NCBI GenBank assembly: GCA_030141605.1 | Contig: JAQGDQ010001366.1 | Location: forward strand, 1-44,225 | Reading direction: 5' to 3' | Origin: Tubiluchus corallicola | Lineage: Eukaryota > Animalia > Priapulida | Length of the DNA: 44,225 nt | Shown: piece by piece, positions 1,200-44,225 of the stretch | Position numbering within the stretch: position 1 is the first letter of the stretch | Layout of the letters: every line of letters begins with the position of its first letter | Made by a program: the position numbers and the translations under genes | Notes under the pieces: generated by a model | What the model saw: only the letters and a program-made list of their open reading frames with translations | The model's database searches: none | Told to the model about the DNA's origin: nothing

Positions 1200-2700
1200 T
1201 CGTTGTAGAGTTGTATTTGCTAAACCTTTTTGCAGTATAAAATATTCGTGAGTAGCTGACCTCCTCTCGGCTTTTTTGTCGTTTCAAGAGTTTTACCAAA
1301 TGTTATACGAAGAGGTATAGACTATTGAGGTAATCTTAGTGCATGTCCAATCCAATGCAATCTTCTTGCTTGTATTTGTTTACTCCAAGGATTCTTCTTG
1401 ACCACATCATACAGATCATCATTGGATAGTCTGTCAGACCATTTAATCTTAGTGCATGCCCAATCCAATGCAATCTTCTTACTTGTATTTGTTTACTCCA
1501 AGGATTCTTCTTGACCACATCATACAGATCATCATTGGATAGTCTGTCAGACCATTTAATCTTAGTGCATGCCCAATCCAATGCAATCTTCTTACTTGTA
1601 TTTGTTTACTCCAAGGATTCTTCTTGACCACATCATACAGGTCATCATTGCATATTCTGTCAGGCTATTTAATCTTAGTTTATGCTCAATCCAATGCAAT
1701 CTTCTTGCTTGTATTTGTTTACTCCAAGGATTCTTCTTGACCACATCATAGAGATCATCATTGGATATTCTGTCAGACCATTTAATCTTAGTGTATGCCC
1801 AATCTAATGCAATCTTCTTACTTGTATTTGTTTACTCCAAGGATTCTTCTTGACCACATCATACAGACCATCATCATCATCATCATCATCATCACCACCA
1901 CCACAGGAAGAGGAGACTCTTGAGGTAATCTTAGTGCATGCCCAATCCAAAGCCATCTTCTTGCTTGTATTTGTTTACTCCAAGGATTCTTCTTGACCAC
2001 ATCATACAGATACAGACCATCATCATCATCATCATCATCACCACCACAGGAAGAGGAGACTCTTGAGGTAATCTTAGTGCATGCCCAATCTATGCAATCT
2101 TCTTACTTGTATGTGTTTACTCCAAGGATTCTTCTTCACCACATTATACAGATCATCATTGGATATTCTGTCAGACCATTTAATCTTAGTGCATGCCCAA
2201 TCTAATGCAATCTTCTTACTTGTATTTGTTTACTCCAAGGATTCTTCTTCACCACATCATACAGATCATCATCAGACATTCTGTCAGACCATTTAATCTT
2301 AGTGTATGCCCAATCCAATGCAATCTTCTTACTTGTATTTGTTTACTCCAAGGATTCTTCTTGACCACATCATACAGATCATCATCATCATCATCATCAT
2401 CACCACGGGAAGAGGAGATTCTTGAGGTAATCTTAGTGTATGCCCAATCCAATGCAATCTTCTTACTTGTATTTGTTTACTCCAAGGATTCTTCTTGACC
2501 AATTCATACATCATTGGACAGTCTGTCAGACCTTTAATTCTGGGTAATTTTCTGCAGAAACATCCTTGAAAAGCGTCAATTTGCTTCTGCAGTTTAACTT
2601 TTATTGTCCAATGCTCAGCATTGTACAAAAACACAGGTTCAAAACTAAAGTTGAAAGGAACCGGACTTTGATCTCAAGGGAAAGTCTATTGTTTTCTGAA
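1200..2700 (-). mobile_element. RTE-clade LINE 3' remnant (ORF2 C-terminus, disrupted) with internal tandem amplification
   Basis: The minus strand reads ...RLSLEIKVRF.. / FLYNAEHWTIKVKLQKQIDAFQ..RKL..IKWSDRLSNDDLY....IQVRRLHWIGHALRLPQ*..KKPRGGQLLT, the typical post-RT tail of RTE ORF2. It contains stops and frameshifts and is homologous to 31640-31968. Confidence 0.85.
1330..2520. repeat. Tandem array, about 113-bp unit (about 10 copies, some longer variants with a (CAT)n tract), derived from the RTE remnant
   Basis: AATCTTAGTGCATGCCCAATCC recurs at about 1332, 1445, 1558, 1671 and onward. Three units carry (CAT)n-CACCAC..GAAGAGGAGA..CTTGAGGT instead. Confidence 0.95.
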
Positions 2701-2857: not shown

Positions 2858-2890
2858 CTCATCAAAGAGTTCTTTCCAGTGCCGATTCTC
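2858..2890 (-). CDS. Candidate 33-bp micro-exon encoding ENRHWKELFDE
   Basis: Strong acceptor (ttttatgtttcctttcag) and donor (GAG|gtacgt) on the minus strand. Length is divisible by 3 and the exon is open in phase 0. Confidence 0.5.
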
Positions 2891-4604: not shown

Positions 4605-5007
4605 TTAGGGTTAGGGTTGGGGTTCTGGTTACGATTAGGGTTACGTCTAGGGCTAAGGTTAGGGTTAGGATTAGAGTTAGGATTACAGTTAGGACTAGAG
4701 CTAGAGCTAGGGCTAGGATTAGGGCTAGGGCTAGGATGAGGATTAGGGTTAGAGTTAGGGCTAGGGCTAGGGCTAGGGCTAGGGCTAGAGCTAGAGCTAG
4801 GGCTAGGGTGAAGATTAAGTTTAGAGGTAGGGCTAGGGTTAGGATTAGGGCTAGGGTGAGGATTAGGGTTAGAGTTAGGGCTAGGGCTAGGGTGAAGATT
4901 AAGTTTAGAGGTAGGGCTAGGGTTAGGTTTAGGGCTAGGGTGAGTATTAGGGTTAGAGTTAGGGCTAGGGCTAGGGCTAGGGTTACGGATAGGGTTAGGA
5001 TTAGGTT
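4605..5007 (+). repeat. Interstitial degenerate telomere-like hexamer array (TTAGGG/CTAGGG variants)
   Basis: About 65 hexamers such as TTAGGG, CTAGGG, TTAGGA and CTAGAG, with duplicated higher-order blocks. Confidence 0.9.
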
Positions 5008-13287: not shown

Positions 13288-13727
13288 CTTGTATCTAAGA
13301 AAAACGGGTTGAACATTTTTTGATCAAGCACTCTTGTCATAGATTTTACAGACACCTAATGGTGATTAGATAGGTGCTTAATTTAGCTGTTAGTTGGCAA
13401 AGTTGTTTTGTAAGTAATAAATTTCAGCTGGGTTTAATTAAAAGATTTCCTCGCATTTCTATCACTGTAAAATTATTCCAATTTGTAATACATTATAATA
13501 TTATAATTTAATAATTTTATTAGCTTTTATAATACATTTTGTATTTTTTTTGTACAATTGTAACTACACCATTGAAAGTGTTTTTCTCACTTTGTTAAAT
13601 TCATTGATTTATTATTATTATTATTCATAATCAACAGCATTGGTAAAAGTTTGTGAAGAAACTAAAAAGAAGAGAAAAATAAAAATATTCTTTAACATCT
13701 TTCAAGAAAATCTTTCAGTTGTCTGAA

Positions 13728-13792
13728 CTATCCTCGTCTTCGGTTCCGTATTTGATTTCTGTTTGATGGAGCGAAGTCTGGAAATTGCCGCC
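13728..13792 (-). CDS. Predicted terminal coding exon of the secreted repeat (peptide-precursor-like) gene: (G)RQFPDFAPSNRNQIRNRRRG*
   Basis: Acceptor attatctgttgcag with the CAG at 13795-13793. A phase-1 join to the donor at 15019 gives ...SYQT-GR-QF..., recreating the GRQ motif of the repeats. TAG at 13730-13728. Confidence 0.65.
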
Positions 13793-13831
13793 CTGCAACA
13801 GATAATATGGAGTCATTTTAAATTCAGTTAA

Positions 13832-14394
13832 AGCAAAACCGGAGCCAATCTTAAGCTGTAGGTCAAAACAATCTACTCTTTAAAATACTGAAAGGAAACA
13901 TACTATTTTTTCATAAATGATTTACGTGAAACAATTATCACCACACAAACACAATTTCACGTTCGCGCCACTAGTTCTTCGCTGTTACACGCATTTCGCC
14001 ATTCGTTAGTTAGACGGGCACAAGCGCCTGCATTTCGGTAACGCTTTGCACAAAAAACAGGTGTAGTACCTCTCTATCCAGACGTGTTAGTTTGTGACGA
14101 ACTGCACACGTTCAACACTCATGTGCAAAAGTTTGATACAACACATTGAATCTCTTACAGTAGCACTGTACGTCAATTTTCGCTTTCACAAACACGTGCA
14201 ACATGCTCGTGGAATATTTTTGATGTTGAAAATTATGTTCGTTTGTGATGTCATCAATAGTTGGGATCGCCCGCCGTTAATTAAGATTTTAATCTATTAT
14301 TTAATTATCAGAAACGCTATTAATTATGTTAAAATGTATACTTTTTGTCGGATTTTTGAAAATGGTAGTACAAGAAAAATCATCCTGTCTTCCT
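13832..14394. mobile_element. TTAA-flanked MITE, family A (Kolobok-like), within the intron of the secreted-protein gene
   Basis: TTAA on both sides and imperfect TIRs AGCAAAACCGGA / TCCTGTCTTCCT. Homologous copies at 23612-24225, about 30575-30960, about 31140-31632 and about 42455-42800. Confidence 0.8.
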
Positions 14395-15019
14395 TTAAAA
14401 ATAAATAAAGCTTAGGTAAACATTGTCCTTGTACAAAGATAAAAATCTTGAAATTTTGTATTACCTACATGCTGTCTTACTGAATACAGCTTGTATTAGC
14501 AACAATGCTGTAAAAAAACTTGAAAATTTAAATTACTACGAAGACAGTTAGATGCAGCTATTTTAATTGTCAGTCTTTGAATAAGAAATTCATGCAATTT
14601 TAGAAAACACTGCAAAAAGTTCGATAACAATAACAATAATACTGCCACTACCACTAACAGTAACATTAACAGTAACAGTAACAGTAACAATAATAATAAT
14701 AATGAGTAAGCCGAGTAAGATTACCATTGTGGCTATAATTAAACATTAGTTACGACACCACTGCTTTTTCAGTGGTTCATCTAGAGACGCTTACCATGAA
14801 TTAGGCACCGGTCTTGCCACAGCTATCCACACAGAGTAGGTTGACGTTGAATGCTAGGTTATATGCCAATTCGTATGAAAAGCACGTCAGAAGCTTTTTG
14901 AATGTCTACTTTTCAAGACGTGTGTAATTAAATTGGTTCATCAAATACTCACACTTTTCTTGCACAAAGAAAAAAATACTATGGTATATGTGACTCACAA
15001 AAATAAAACAAGCCGTTAC

Positions 15020-15587
15020 CTGTTTGGTAGGAATTCCGGGCCTCATAGCCGAGGAACGTGGGTTCTCCGTAGCCACGCCCGCGAGAGCGAGAAACCAAGT
15101 CGAATAAATCCATCCTATACGAACGAGGTTCATATATTGGTGGACTATAGTCCGGATAGGACAGGTAACGATACACGAGAGGCGCAGAACGTTGAGCGTG
15201 GAAGTATGGTCCCGGTCCTGATTCGTATCCTTGCGGCCCGTATCCTCGTCGAGTCTGCAGCGGCGCCTCCTGCCGACCGTACGTTTGAGCTGGTCCTGAT
15301 TCGTATCCTTGCGGCCCGTATCCTCGTCGAGTCTGCAGCGGCGCCTCCTGCCGACCGTACGTTTGGGCTGGTCCTGATTCGTATCCTTGCGGTCCGTATC
15401 CTCGTCGAGTCTGCAGCGGCGCCTCCTGCCGACCGTACGTTTGGGCTGGGCCTGATTCGTATCCTTGCGGCCCGTATCCTCGTCGAGTCTGCAGCGGTGC
15501 CTCCTGCCGACCGTACGTTTGACAGTTAGCCGTCACAATTAAAGCCGGAATCGTCAAAAGCAAGAACCGTACCATTTCTACAGACAT
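15020..15587 (-). CDS. Main coding exon of a secreted Gly/Tyr/Gln-rich repeat protein, putative neuropeptide/peptide precursor (about 210 aa after splicing)
   Basis: Acceptor ttttctttttag just upstream (exon starts 15607). ATG at 15587 or 15575. Signal peptide MVRFLLLTIPALIVTANC|Q, then 4 copies of QTYGRQEAPLQTRRGYGPQGYESGP(A). The region is GC-rich relative to its flanks, inter-repeat substitutions are synonymous, and the donor CAG|gtaacg is at 15019. Confidence 0.88.
15213..15520. repeat. 78-bp coding tandem repeat, 4 copies
   Basis: CCTGATTCGTATCC recurs at 15217, 15295, 15373 and 15451. Confidence 0.97.
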
Positions 15588-16277
15588 GTGCAAATTGGAT
15601 CAAAGTCCTAAAAAGAAAAAATAATTATTGCAAAAAAAAGAAATTGTTAAATTCACATAACAACTCTGGACAGTCAGCATACAAACGTGAACTAATTCGC
15701 TAAATGGTTTTTAAAATGGAAAGATTTATCGCGCAATGATTAAAACACCTTCACGGTACTGTAATACACTCTCAGGTAAACAATGTCTATCTTTGTATTC
15801 GTGCTCGCTGTTTACATGTACAAGTTTTTCCTGTTGCTACACACTATAGTGGTACGTAGCAGCCAGGCAAAGGAAGCAGAATCATTAACGCCAATTTTGA
15901 AGCAACTTAATCATTATACACTATACAAACGACATAACTCTTAACTGAAAGTGTCTGTAATACAGTGCAAATGTATTAACGCATGAAATCAAACACAAAC
16001 TTATCCAAACTGATACTTAAGCAGGTTAGTAAAATGGGTCGTCGTGGGCTTCTTCGTCGTGCTGTTTGATATTCATAAGGAAGCCAAGTAATATGTTAGA
16101 TTTAAGTTTAAATACTTGTGCTAATGTAATAAATTATTGAAGTGAAACCAGATCCGAATCAGGTAAGACAAAATCAAACTGATGCAGGATTTTCTGTAAC
16201 AGTCTCAAGGTCATTGCTTTGTTTTTTCTTGATTTTAAACTAATGTGAAAATGTTGAGCATTTGTCATTTGTTTGGT

Positions 16278-19230: not shown

Positions 19231-19515
19231 ATGATGAATTGCTTTGCTTGATAAACTTTTTCTAGTCTCGCGGTCGCGGTCACGGTCATGCGGCTTGATT
19301 TGACTTTGCTGAGAATAAATTAACCTATTTTGAAGACCTGTGATATTTCTTATATTTATTTTTTCATATCTTTACTTATTATTGTTGTGGTTGAAATATT
19401 AGGTCACGTGATTGTCATTTGTTTGTTATTGTTTTACTTTATATTTTTATAGTGTCAAAATTCCATTCGCGTTCGTGTTTGCAAAGTTGACAGCCTGATA
19501 TATTATCTGACTGAC

Positions 19516-20546
19516 CTCGTACACCAGACTGTATATTTTAGTTTCAAATTGACGCACAACTGAAGGCAACACTCTAGTTCGTCAGGATGTGATTTTGACC
19601 ACCAGAGATAAGCAAGGATAAACCTGTCAGCGCAAGGATGGATGACGGCCTGAAAGCAACACTCGAGTTCGTCAGGATGTAATTTTGACCACCAGAGATA
19701 AGCAAGGATAAACCTGTCAGCGAAAGGATGGATGACGGCCGGAAGGCAACACTCGAGTTCGTCAGGATGTAATTTTGACCACCAGAGATAAGCAAGGATA
19801 AACCTGTCAGCGAAAGGATGGATGACGGCCGGAAGGCAACACTCGAGTTCGTCAGGATGTGATTTTGACCACCAGAGATAAGCAAGGATAAACCTGTCAG
19901 CGCAAGGATGGATGACGGCCTGAAGGCAACACTCGAGTTCGTCAGGATGTGATTTTGACCACCAGAGATAAGCAAGGATAAACCTGTCAGCGAAAGGATG
20001 GATGACGGCCTGAAGGCAACACTCTAGTTCGTCAGGATGTGATTTTGACCACCAGAGATAAGCAAGGATAAACCTGTCAGCGCAAGGATGGATGACGGCC
20101 TGAAGGCAACACTCGAGTTCGTCAGGATGTGATTTTGACCACCAGAGATAAGCAAGGATAAACCTGTCAGCGAAAGGATGGATGACGGCCTGAAGGCAAC
20201 ACTCTAGTTCGTCAGGATGTGATTTTGACCACCAGAGATAAGCAAGGATAAACCTGTCAGCGCAAGGATGGATGACGGCCTGAAGGCAACACTCGAGTTC
20301 GTCAGGATGAGAATTTGACCACCAGAAATAAGCAAGGATAAACCTGTCAGCGAAAGGATGGATGACGGCCTGAAGGCAACACTCGAGTTCGTCAGGATGT
20401 GATTTTGACCACCAGAAATAAGCAAGGATAAACCTGTCAGCGAAAGGATGGATGACGGCCGGAAGGCAACACTCGAGTTCGTCATGATGTGATTTTGACC
20501 ACCAGAGATAAGCAAGGATAAACCAGTCAGCGAATGGATGGATTTC
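19516..20546 (-). other. Candidate exon containing the 90-bp array (coding status unknown)
   Basis: Acceptor ctgttatttacag immediately 5' of the array and donor GAG|gtcagt 45 bp 3' of it. One frame is open throughout (EIHPFAD...WCTR). Confidence 0.35.
19561..20542. repeat. Minisatellite, 90-bp unit, about 11 highly similar copies
   Basis: TGAAGGCAACACTCGAGTTCGTCAGGATGTG... at 19561, 19651, 19741 ... 20461. Confidence 0.97.
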
Positions 20547-20949
20547 CTGTAAATAACAGTGTAATATGTAAACAGAAATAAAGTCTTTCACAGTTCAATA
20601 CAATTCAGAAGTTTCATCAGAGAGAACTAACTTCAGTGTAATATACCTATGCTGTCAGCTAAAGGTTTCTACAAGACAAAATCCATCTAGTATGTATTTA
20701 AGAGATACGTTGTTATGTTTTACTTCTGTGAAAATCATTCACACATTACCTTCAACTGTTGAATCTCTCAGTTAATAAGAAATTACACCCCCAGGGCAAA
20801 AATAAATCTGATGAGTTAAAGAGTCATTACGAGTTTGCTTTAATTAGCCAATTTAAAGGTCTTTCAGTCGAGTAATTTCATTTAATAAGTACTTGTACAC
20901 ACGATGTCTTATGTGGCTTCTTTCCGTCCGTGAAGCACCTTGGCAGTTG

Positions 20950-25166: not shown

Positions 25167-25588
25167 TGTGAACACGCCAAGACAATGAATGAACACTGTG
25201 AACACGCCAAGACAATGAATGAACACTGTGAACACGGTAAGACAATGAATGAACACTGTGAACACGGTAAGACAATGGATGAACAAAGTGAACACTCATA
25301 GACAATGGATGAACACCGTGGACACACATAGACAATGGATAAACAAAGTGAACACGCCAAGACAATGGATGAACAAAGTGAACACGCCAATACAATGGAT
25401 GTACAAAGTGAATACACATAGACAATGGATGAACAAAGAGAACACACATAGACAATGGATGAACAAAGTGAACACGCCAAGACAATGGATGAACAAAGTG
25501 AACACGCCAATACAATGGATGAACAAAGTGAACATGCCAAGACAATGGATGAACAAAGTGAACACGCCAATACAATGGATGAACAAAA
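25167..25588 (+). repeat. 30-bp tandem repeat, about 14 copies, overlapping the start of the downstream ORF
   Basis: Unit GTGAACACGCCAAGACAATGGATGAACAAA. The last copies encode MDEQSEHA(K/N)T. Confidence 0.95.
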
Positions 25589-26353
25589 TGCCAACAGAGA
25601 AGCCTGGCCAATTCAAGCTGAACTCAACGACTACGAAAATGACAATGATAATAAATTTGAAGGTGTTCAAGAACTGGTGAGCGACGAACGCGAAAAAGAA
25701 AAACAGAAACTTTCAGTTAGCGAAGGTGCTGATCTGAATGTGAGGATCACTTCGCCACAAGGTACAGTGGTCGACGTCCAGCAGAACTCTGACCAGGAGA
25801 TCTCGGCTCAAAATGAAGCCACTACCGACAACAACCTCTCGAACCAAAAACGAAAAAAGAAGAAAAAGAAAAAGAAACGTCGTAGCTCCATCGGTTCAAC
25901 CGTCAGTACCAGCATCAGCGAGATGTCGTCGGTCGTATCAGCATACCGAACGACAGCGACAGCGGTGTCGAGATTTGCTGATGGCATCAATCATAATGTG
26001 TCTGTTGAGGCCACTACGCCACATTATTTGGCCAAACTTAGTGCAAAGTTGACAGACAAAACCAATGAGCTTTCCGCGGCCGAATGTGACGCTTTGGCGA
26101 AAGAATTGGACAAACCGGAAGGAAATAGATTTCAGTGCAAGCGATCTTATAAACTAACCACGTCTTTGATTATACCTGTCTTAGTCATAAGCGTACAAAG
26201 TGCCTTTATAATATGGGAATTAGTGCGTGTCAATCGTGGCGCAAACTTAATGAAAGATCACATAGAGAAAACTGTGACGTATGGACGACTTTACACCAGC
26301 CTTTTATCGGAAAGAAACCAATTCGTTACGCACGTGTACTGTAATAATAGCAG
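25455..26353 (+). CDS. First large coding exon of a membrane protein, resembling the N-terminus, TM and start of the NIT domain of invertebrate NIT-domain guanylyl cyclases
   Basis: 299-codon open frame with non-repetitive coding composition. Acidic N-terminus, KRKKKKKKKKRRSS, hydrophobic helix LTTSLIIPVLVISVQSAFIIW, then ...YGRLYTSLLSERNQFVTHVY. Acceptor ttttggcttttggtag at about 25116 and donor CAG|gtaagc at 26354 (phase 2). Coding status is well supported, the family call less so. Confidence 0.75.
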
Positions 26354-26543
26354 GTAAGCTTAGCTCTAACAGACCTAACTAGGTGTTGGGTTCGATAAAT
26401 TAACGTACCGTAAAACGACCCCATGCTTCTGTGGACGTGTAAGAGTTGCGTTCATTTCACACGTAAGAAGCACTCAGCAGAAGCAAGGCGAAAGTCGTTC
26501 ATTCAGGCGTGAAACATTGCGTTCTACGTGGAAATGAGATGAC

Positions 26544-31639: not shown

Positions 31640-31968
31640 ATGAATTCGATTAAAAGCGTATTTAAGAACCTTGGACACGAAAAATAAAAAGACGCCGTTT
31701 AAGATGGATTGGGCATATGCTTAGACTACCTGATGATATTCCAGTGAAGATTACTCTTCAACAAGCCATAGAACCAGCTAAAAAACCTGCAGGAGGACAA
31801 ATGCTAACATATTTAGATTTTGCACAGAAAGATTTAAACACTTCAGCATTGATCCTTAGAAATAAATCCACTTGGGGCATTGCGCCAAGCAGGGAGTCTT
31901 GGCATAGGGAGGTGAGCATAATCATGTCCCTGGACGTATGATTCATTGGATCATCATCATCATCATAC
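31640..31968 (+). mobile_element. RTE-clade LINE 3' fragment
   Basis: KIKRRRLRWIGHMLRLPDDIPVKITL...KKPAGGQMLTY...SRESW...* followed by a (TCA)n tail. Confidence 0.85.
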
Positions 31969-41070: not shown

Positions 41071-41101
41071 AGGAGTGGAAGCTTTTTTTGATGAAGGGCG
41101 T

Positions 41102-41474
41102 GTTATAACCGAACTTCACTTTTTACTTACAAACATATTAATGTGATGAGCGGTGCCTTTGAAGTAAAGTAAGCTACCGTTCCACAGACATAATGCTGAA
41201 CCTCAGAACCTGTAATCTAAAACAGATACATACTACATGTATGGCACTCATCTCTTTCCCAAAATCTCTCTGATTTGCTAGAAACTGTTCAAAAGCGCTC
41301 ATTGAAAATAATTTTATGTTATGTGATTCAACGCGGCAAAATTTAGTTCTTCATCTTTGGATGTCGATTAAAGTAATTACTACGAATCTAATTTTTTTGA
41401 TATATTTAAATTGGTAAAGAAAAAACTTCTAAAACTCCTAATTATTTCAAGTTTAATTTTTAATATGCGTAATC

Positions 41475-43855: not shown

Positions 43856-44225
43856 CATATAAGATTTACGCATATTAAAAAATTAAACTTAGCAATTAGG
43901 AGTTTTAGGAAGTTTTTTCTTACCAATTTAAATATATCAAAAAATTAGATTCGTAGTAATTACTTTTAATCGAATCCAAAGATGAAGAACTAAATTTTGT
44001 TGAATACATAACATAAAATTATTTTCAATGAGCGCTTTTGAACAGTTTCTAGCAAATCAGAGAGATTTTGGGAAAGAGATGAGTGCCATACATGTAGTAT
44101 GTATCTGTTTTAGATTTCAGGTTCTGAGGTTCAGCATTATGTCTGTGGAACGGTAGCTTACTTTACTTCAAAGGCACCGCTCATCACATTAATATGTTTG
44201 TAAGTAAAAAGTGAAGTTCGGTTAT
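43856..44225 (-). repeat. Right arm of the inverted repeat pair (runs off the window end)
   Basis: Reverse complement of about 41105-41478. Confidence 0.9.

What the first reader, a model, noticed from the sequence alone, without database searches (positions are those of the whole stretch)
13728..15607. Putative novel neuropeptide/peptide-hormone precursor (QTYamide-type repeats)
Seen: a signal peptide ending ANC|Q, four 26-aa repeats QTY-GR-QEAPLQT-RR-GYGPQGYESGPA, a divergent paracopy (RGR-GYGEPTFLGYEAR-NSYQT), canonical splice sites, and a phase-1 splice that rebuilds a fifth GR-Q junction (SYQT-GR-QFPDF). The four nucleotide differences I could find among the repeat copies (GCA/GCG, GGC/GGA, GCC/GCT, GGG/GGA) are all synonymous, which argues for selection on the peptide. 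Established: prohormone convertases cut at RR and some monobasic R, carboxypeptidase E plus PAM convert X-G-R to X-amide, and N-terminal Q cyclises to pyroglutamate. Inference: products would be pQTYamide (x1), GYGPQGYESGPAQTYamide (x3), pQEAPLQT (x4) and NSYQTamide. I do not recognise these as a known family. The alternative is a Gly/Tyr-rich secreted structural, adhesive or eggshell protein.
Basis: partly seen in the sequence, partly recalled or inferred. Interest (0 to 1): 0.85.

Follow-up and report, generated by a model that had tools for sequence, protein, structure and literature searches.

The report
Orphan tyrosine-rich secreted repeat protein
This animal gene carries four near-identical repeats and is predicted to encode a small secreted, unstructured protein rich in tyrosine, glycine and arginine with no relative found in the databases searched; it is more likely a body-coat or glue protein than the new nerve-peptide precursor first proposed, though that reading is not excluded.

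Summary
The anatomy is real: a hydrophobic N-terminus, four 78-bp repeats whose internal differences are all synonymous in this frame only (0 of 48 control frames behave so), GT-AG sites, and a 210-aa predicted product. No relative was found and no RNA could be examined. The neuropeptide reading is weaker than proposed. The protein has 27 Arg and no Lys. The four GR sites in the repeat lack the upstream basic residue used in a published precursor screen, and the protein fails both patterns of that screen. The last three residues before GR differ between old and new copies. Tyrosine is richest in the non-peptide linker, and net charge is about +11. Ecdysozoan cuticle proteins such as nematode epicuticlins share this design (signal peptide, three Tyr per repeat, basic junctions), though their defining GYR/YGD motifs are absent here. 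Best reading: a Tyr-crosslinked secreted coat or cement protein (0.5); neuropeptide precursor 0.25; defence or gland peptide precursor 0.2. Other notes on this genome suggest a priapulid-like animal (not tested here). The scan has not reported this sequence on other DNA.

The parts
15588..15607 (-). 5' untranslated start of the main exon, behind a T-rich AG acceptor; it holds an in-frame stop, so any upstream exon (not located) is non-coding
15522..15587 (-). Predicted signal peptide, aa 1-22 (18 aa if Met5 is used); cut after Ala20 or Cys22 by the -3/-1 rule
   Evidence: hydropathy; -3/-1 listing; only helix of the model, aa 3-25; SignalP not available
15444..15521 (-). Repeat unit 1 (26 aa; 3 Tyr, 3 Arg, 5 Gly, 4 Gln)
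15366..15443 (-). Repeat unit 2
15288..15365 (-). Repeat unit 3
15210..15287 (-). Repeat unit 4 (last residue Gly instead of Ala)
15093..15209 (-). Tyr/Pro-rich linker (17.5% Tyr, 15% Pro over aa 126-165); its first part may be a decayed fifth copy in which GR reads QR and RR reads RY
   Evidence: alignment p = 340 of 5000, not significant alone
15021..15086 (-). Possible older copy of the unit (RGYG ... GYE ... QT)
   Evidence: weak, significant only in post hoc tests
13793..15019 (-). Predicted phase-1 GT-AG intron, 1227 nt, containing a dispersed high-copy repeat at about 13828-14400
13728..13792 (-). Predicted last coding exon (65 nt, 48% GC), Arg-rich end and TAG stop
   Evidence: no RNA evidence
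13608..13613 (-). AATAAA, candidate polyadenylation signal 115 nt after the stop (a second at 13521)

Best explanation
The gene likely encodes a secreted, disordered, cationic Tyr/Gly/Arg/Pro/Gln-rich repeat protein that would be laid down in an extracellular coat (cuticle or epicuticle, cement, or egg or sperm covering) and hardened through tyrosine cross-links. Shown: the open frame, the four repeats, synonymous-only change inside the array, and the composition. Inferred: secretion, the last splice, disorder, tissue, and cross-linking. The regularly spaced Tyr-Gly and Gly-Tyr motifs (three Tyr per unit) would be the cross-link sites, and Arg-Tyr contacts would help condense the protein before curing. 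The RR junctions may be trimmed by a convertase during secretion, which would give 24-residue units and no amidated peptide. The four copies are a recent slippage product in a region full of minisatellites, laid over an older and weaker internal repeat.
For: Mature chain: Gly 14%, Arg 14%, Tyr 12%, Pro 11%, Gln 11%, no Lys, Cys or Trp, pI 9.9, charge about +11. With the repeats collapsed to one there are still 18 Arg and 0 Lys in 132 aa, while the neighbouring ORF has 24 Lys and 15 Arg. Tyr is highest in the linker outside the proposed peptides (17.5% against 11.7%). The protein fails both proneuropeptide patterns of PMC8557429 and has no K[KR] as screened in PMC3890597. Residues 1-3 before the amide are the best kept between Drosophila paracopies (PMC2575521, passage); here they read QTY against YQT, 0 of 3 in register. 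A known structural class has the same design: epicuticlins have a signal peptide, tandem repeats with three Tyr each, RKKR junctions and disorder, and dityrosine is found in the epicuticle (PMC9612446, abstract, passages and section 7). The single-sequence model has no structure beyond the N-terminal helix (pLDDT 52, pTM 0.19). The nearest ESM Atlas clusters are arthropod hypothetical proteins, a putative pupal cuticle protein and a GYR/YLP cluster at 0.76-0.81 (below 0.9, so a lead only). Six unchecked notes call this genome priapulid-like, which would make it a cuticle-bearing animal.
Against: All three Arg of the unit sit in GR or RR; RR plus GR occurs in 4.2% of shuffles, RR plus GRQ in 0.9%. 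The motifs shared between unit and tail include GRQ, RRG and RGY, and the older GR at 190-191 does have a basic residue at P8, as expected if cut sites were kept. The defining motifs GYR, YGD, YLP and YGAP are all absent and Pfam finds neither GYR nor YLP. Epicuticlins are acidic (pI about 4) and Ala-rich, unlike this protein. Disorder and a low-confidence single-sequence model do not separate structural proteins from prohormones. There is no expression, tissue or protein evidence, and the taxon is not verified from this window.
Confidence: 0.5

Rival explanations
1. A lineage-specific neuropeptide or peptide-hormone precursor: cleavage at RR and at monobasic GR, then amidation, would release three copies of a 15-residue GYG...QTY-amide, an 18-residue older paracopy, a pyroglutamyl tripeptide amide and pyroglutamyl spacers.
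For: Regular GR|Q and RR|G alternation (0.9-4.2% of shuffles); no basic residue inside the predicted 15-mer; Gln directly after the likely signal cut and after each GR; GRQ and RRG recur in the tail. Recent, mutation-free amplification of a peptide cassette with no homologues is known from the locust salivation peptide (PMC4237046, section 33), and Platynereis precursors were accepted on repetitive structure and modifications alone (PMC3890597, passage).
Against: No Lys, no KR, no G-dibasic site; the four array GR sites lack an upstream basic residue; both published patterns fail. The C-terminal three residues are not kept between copies. The linker is Tyr-rich rather than acidic (Asp+Glu 8-10% in the array and linker). 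No match for QTYGR, GYGPQ, GYESG or YQTGR in the spiralian supplement; in the xenacoelomorph supplement the only hit was GYESG inside a receptor sequence.
Confidence: 0.25
2. A cationic Gly/Tyr-rich defence or gland-secretion precursor, made in epidermis, coelomocytes or reproductive glands and clipped at RR into multi-copy peptides, working like the nematode NLP-29/caenacin antimicrobial peptides.
For: Net charge about +11 and Gly/Tyr-rich. The C. elegans nlp-29 cluster and caenacins are Gly/Tyr-rich epidermal antimicrobial peptides that carry the name neuropeptide-like 'only for historical reasons' (PMC2453101, passages; PMC4681281, passages). Such genes evolve fast, which fits an orphan.
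Against: No YGG or GGY motif (that these mark NLP-29/caenacins is recalled). After removal of RR the 24-mer unit has one Arg and two Glu, so the released repeat peptide is not cationic; the charge lies in the junctions and the tail. No paralogue cluster in the window (tblastn).
Confidence: 0.2
3. A GC-rich minisatellite with a chance open frame, or a dead gene.
For: The window holds many tandem arrays, several with long open frames. No homologue was found.
Against: Synonymous-only change in exactly the frame fixed by the ATG and hydrophobic leader; clean acceptor and donor around a 56% GC exon; an AT-rich 3' region with AATAAA.
Confidence: 0.05

Closest known systems
Nematode epicuticlins (Asu-EPIC-1; C. 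elegans F11E6.3, K08D12.6) and arthropod GYR/YLP cuticular proteins (PMC9612446; abstract, passages, section 7)
   Same: Signal peptide followed directly by near-perfect tandem repeats in one large exon; three Tyr per repeat; basic junctions in every repeat; predicted disorder; copy number set by slippage.
   Different: No GYR, YGD or YLP motif; 26-aa unit against 49-71 aa; pI 9.9 against about 4; Gly/Arg/Gln-rich rather than Ala-rich; no sequence match in any search.
Resilin-type repeats (Anopheles An16 and Drosophila Rec1 consensus as listed in PMC13052691; passages)
   Same: Gly/Pro/Tyr/Gln/Ser repeats with Tyr-Gly; the unit contains AQT, YG and AP in the same order as the An16 consensus.
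   Different: No YGAP motif, only four repeats, no chitin-binding domain by Pfam, more Arg; the likeness is by eye and untested.
C. elegans NLP-27 to NLP-34 and caenacins (PMC2453101, PMC4681281; passages)
   Same: Gly/Tyr-rich secreted peptides first taken for neuropeptide precursors.
   Different: No YGG repeats; much longer; single copy in the window; released repeat units would not be cationic.
Multi-copy proneuropeptides, including Drosophila NPLP1 (MTYamide) and the locust salivation peptide SGSSP (PMC2575521, PMC4237046; passages, section 33)
   Same: Signal peptide, repeated cassette, basic sites, potential amide donor Gly, no folded domain; SGSSP is also an orphan with recent amplification.
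   Different: SGSSP uses Lys-Arg sites; here there are none. Only the last two residues TY are shared with MTYamide by name. Paracopy C-termini are not conserved here.

Membership tests
Multi-copy proneuropeptide | N-terminal signal peptide | tested here: met
   Hydropathy peak 2.7 and -3/-1 sites; heuristic only, SignalP not run
Multi-copy proneuropeptide | No folded non-neuropeptide domain | tested here: met
   Pfam: 1 sub-threshold family, DUF2406 at E 0.033; PDB 0 matches; model
Multi-copy proneuropeptide | At least 3 amidation sites of type G-dibasic or monobasic with a basic residue 2, 4 or 6 places before the Gly (screen of PMC8557429) | tested here: not met
   pattern false; 0 of the 4 array GR sites comply; 1 internal site (190-191) and the terminal Gly do
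Multi-copy proneuropeptide | At least 5 dibasic sites 5-25 aa apart (same screen) | tested here: not met
   4 RR sites in series, so it fails by one; 0 K[KR] sites
Multi-copy proneuropeptide | C-terminal residues conserved between paracopies, spacers more variable | tested here: inconclusive
   Recent copies are identical in peptide and spacer alike; the single older copy differs at all 3 last positions in register, but its homology is itself weak
Multi-copy proneuropeptide | Neuronal or endocrine expression and detected mature peptides | not testable with these tools
   No RNA holder listed; no peptidomics
Epicuticlin / GYR-YLP cuticular proteins | GYR and YGD (or YLP) motifs in each repeat | tested here: not met
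   0 GYR, 0 YGD, 0 YLP; no PF02756 or PF02757 hit in the exon-2 protein
Epicuticlin / GYR-YLP cuticular proteins | Signal peptide plus disordered tandem repeats with 2-3 Tyr and a basic junction | tested here: met
Epicuticlin / GYR-YLP cuticular proteins | Acidic, Ala/Pro-rich repeats of 49-71 aa | tested here: not met
   pI 9.9, 26-aa unit
Resilin | YGAP repeats and usually a chitin-binding domain | tested here: not met
   0 YGAP; no Pfam chitin-binding hit
NLP-29 / caenacin antimicrobial peptides | YGG-type Gly/Tyr repeats (motif recalled) | tested here: not met
   0 YGG, 0 GGY
NLP-29 / caenacin antimicrobial peptides | Infection- or wound-induced epidermal expression | not testable with these tools
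   no RNA data
Achatin | Gly-aromatic-Gly-acidic tetrapeptides each flanked by basic sites | tested here: not met
   RR-GYGE-KR occurs in a nemertean achatin precursor (supplement passage); here GYG is followed by Pro or Glu-Pro, with no basic site after four residues

The most novel reading that the evidence does not exclude
The gene is the precursor of an undescribed neuropeptide family of a little-studied, probably priapulid-like animal: a lysine-free prohormone cut at RR and at non-canonical monobasic GR sites into GYG...GYE...amide peptides, possibly recruited from a Tyr/Gly-rich coat-protein repeat and recently amplified fourfold, which would be a case of a peptide signal arising anew.
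Probability: 0.25. Interest if true: 0.6.

Novelty: new member of a known kind. Interest (0 to 1): 0.3.

Why it matters
If structural, it is one more orphan low-complexity secreted protein. It would be of modest value as a candidate coat protein of a non-arthropod, non-nematode ecdysozoan (if the taxon notes hold), converging on the epicuticlin design with opposite charge. If it is a prohormone, it adds a lineage-specific peptide family and a directly synthesisable ligand for receptor screens in a group whose peptides were so far mined by homology to arthropod families (10.1101/2024.07.20.604414, passages). It also shows how easily Gly/Arg/Tyr-rich repeat proteins mimic neuropeptide precursors.

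Tried and rejected
Homology: word-indexed search of the exon-2 protein, 0 of 7800 candidates at E <= 0.1 for lengths 103-331 and 0 of 7993 at E <= 1 for lengths 332-2000; proteins under 103 aa were not searched this way. phmmer over 1.84 billion representatives gave 2 hits, P0001 and P0002; both are singleton low-complexity repeat ORFs without signal peptide or the unit's motifs and were rejected on reading. Pfam, PDB and JGI metagenome contigs gave nothing usable (46 pattern matches, 0 confirmed). ESM Atlas: leads under 0.9 only, then no usable hit among named clusters. All these searches used exon 2 only. Expression: no RNA holder listed; run X2 (RNA status a guess) has no contig on the exons, which is no evidence either way. 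Run X1 has a 108-base contig on the repeat and a 151-base contig on the donor side, but may be the source sample. No whole genome is held, so paralogues and convertase genes could not be sought. Taxon from this window: the neighbouring ORF found 0 of 59 candidates and no Pfam family above cut-off. Literature: 'TYamide' gave 9 papers, 8 listed, and I read passages of one (Drosophila MTYamide). GYGPQGY had 0 occurrences in the 20 listed of 27 papers. Motif searches of supplements: PMC3890597 (11 files searched, 5 not searched; 8 passages seen, none a similar repeat precursor), PMC8557429 (1 file), PMC6188537 (1 file). bioRxiv supplements, including the priapulid peptide lists of NP-HMMer, are closed and could bear on the no-match claim. 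The NeuroPred paper is not held. Rejected: NSYQTamide as a product; achatin, resilin, epicuticlin and NLP-29 membership; copy number as evidence of selection for peptide dose. The paracopy tests were run in two rounds, and only the second, post hoc round was significant.

Full report
Observation. The minus strand holds the gene described. An AG acceptor with a long T tract precedes 15607, an in-frame stop lies at 15602-15600, the first ATG is at 15587, the donor follows 15020, and joining to the acceptor before 13792 gives 633 nt and 210 aa ending at TAG 13730-13728. Without that splice the frame would stop at 14979. The array is 4.0 copies of 78 bp at 97%; the fourth protein copy differs in its last residue. 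AATAAA lies 115 nt past the stop in 21% GC sequence.

Is it more than chance? For coding, yes. Five variant codons inside the array are synonymous, while only 64 of 234 possible single-base changes would be. Across 9 arrays and 6 frames each, the gene frame is the only 1 of 54 with no non-synonymous variant (the arrays were picked by hand from the 55 rows for a period divisible by three, and three full copies of the target were compared). For processing sites, the signal is modest: shuffling the unit gives RR in 23%, GR in 41%, both in 4.2% and RR with GRQ in 0.9% of 200,000 trials, and the four copies are one event. The older paracopy was weak in my first tests (252 of 5000; 444 of 5000; 2900 of 5000; DNA 1409 of 2000). 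It was significant in later tests chosen after seeing the alignment (six shared trimers APL, GRQ, GYE, GYG, RGY, RRG, 25 of 20000; cheap-gap alignment 41 of 5000; one shared 10-base word, 90 of 5000), while exon 3 alone was not (3868 of 5000). I read the tail as probably two decayed copies of the unit. This also lends some support to the choice of last exon, one of 5 candidate acceptors and not the most pyrimidine-rich.

Relatives and expression. Nothing was found for the exon-2 protein in two word-indexed searches, Pfam, PDB or JGI metagenomes. The full phmmer scan returned 2 low-complexity singletons that I rejected. The ESM Atlas offered only sub-0.9 leads, all five shown being mostly arthropod clusters, among them a putative pupal cuticle protein and a GYR/YLP cluster, and nothing among named clusters for residues 23-189. 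AlphaFold without an alignment gave one helix, residues 3-25, with pLDDT 52 and pTM 0.19. No RNA could be examined and no genome is held. This window does not reveal the taxon. Six unreviewed notes on other pieces of the genome call it priapulid or priapulid-like; I use this as a lead only.

Testing the neuropeptide reading. A published screen for multi-copy precursors asks for three amidation sites (G plus dibasic, or monobasic with a basic residue 2, 4 or 6 places before the Gly) or five dibasic sites 5-25 residues apart. The same paper's mass spectrometry found monobasic cuts usually with a second basic residue 3-6 positions upstream (PMC8557429, passages). This protein fails both patterns, the second by one site; it has no KR, KK or G-dibasic site; and none of the four array GR sites complies, although the older GR at 190-191 does. 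With cuts only at RR and RxxR the repeats give 24-residue units and no amide. The protein has 27 Arg and no Lys, and 18 to 0 with the repeats collapsed, while the neighbouring ORF uses 24 Lys to 15 Arg. Drosophila paracopies keep the last three residues best (PMC2575521, passage); here they are QTY and YQT. The linker is not an acidic spacer but the most Tyr-rich part. Against this, every Arg of the unit is in GR or RR, Gln follows both the likely signal cut and each GR, GRQ and RRG recur in the tail, and orphan, recently amplified peptide cassettes exist (locust SGSSP, with Lys-Arg sites; PMC4237046, passages and section 33). That keeps the reading alive at about 0.25.

How it most likely works. 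A signal peptide followed at once by near-perfect tandem repeats with three tyrosines and a basic junction each, in a disordered chain, is the design of nematode epicuticlins and insect GYR/YLP cuticular proteins, where the tyrosines are proposed dityrosine sites (PMC9612446, abstract, passages, section 7). Resilin uses Tyr-Gly repeats in the same way (PMC13052691, passages). I therefore infer a secreted coat or cement protein cured by tyrosine cross-links, perhaps trimmed at RR. It works like these proteins but is not a member: GYR, YGD, YLP and YGAP are absent, the unit is half as long, and the charge is opposite. That Arg-Tyr contacts drive condensation is general knowledge, not tested. A third reading, a Gly/Tyr-rich defence or gland peptide precursor like the C. 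elegans NLP-29 and caenacin genes, which were also first named neuropeptide-like (PMC2453101 and PMC4681281, passages), fits the charge and orphan status, but the released repeat unit would be slightly acidic. Drosophila NPLP2-4 are another precedent for precursors judged unlikely to give true neuropeptides (PMC4237046, passage).

Novelty and verdict. No matching peptide turned up in the paper searches or the three supplement searches (five Platynereis files and bioRxiv supplements not seen), and the scan holds no look-alike. The gene is real and orphan, but of a common kind. Observation confirmed, interpretation partly supported, interest 0.3; the neuropeptide case would merit about 0.6 if peptidomics or neuronal expression confirmed it. 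Passages of PMC3499383, PMC13329902 and PMC9793003 were also seen and did not change the reading.

Noticed in passing
window 25452-26357 (+): 301-aa open frame with a 10-aa N-terminal repeat, a poly-Lys/Arg stretch, one hydrophobic segment and a GT donor just after; the end resembles, from recall, the start of the NIT domain of NIT-type guanylyl cyclases. Pfam gave no NIT hit and a homologue search found nothing; no further exon was recognised by eye.
   Followed up: partly
window 13828-14400: Dispersed high-copy element inside the gene's intron: summed contig depth in the tens of thousands in run X1 and 7 further partial matches at 79-86% identity elsewhere in the window; it ends 36 bases from the last acceptor.
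   Followed up: partly
window 19503-20594 (-): 90-bp tandem array (10.9 copies) with a 363-codon open frame behind an acceptor-like site, upstream of the gene on the same strand; its variants are mostly non-synonymous in every frame, so probably a minisatellite.
   Followed up: partly
window 2858-2890 (-): 33-nt stretch between a good polypyrimidine AG and a GT, open in two frames; candidate micro-exon of an unidentified gene.
   Followed up: no
window 4605-5005: Degenerate interstitial TTAGGG-like array with an 84-bp higher-order period.
   Followed up: no
window 1331-2500 and 31666-31941: Tandemly amplified fragments whose translation (RRLHWIGH..., RRLRWIGH...) recalls the 3' end of an RTE-type LINE; the label is from recall.
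   Followed up: no
window about 41095-41435 (+) and 43860-44225 (-): The two stretches look like inverted copies of each other by eye, flanking microsatellite blocks.
   Followed up: no
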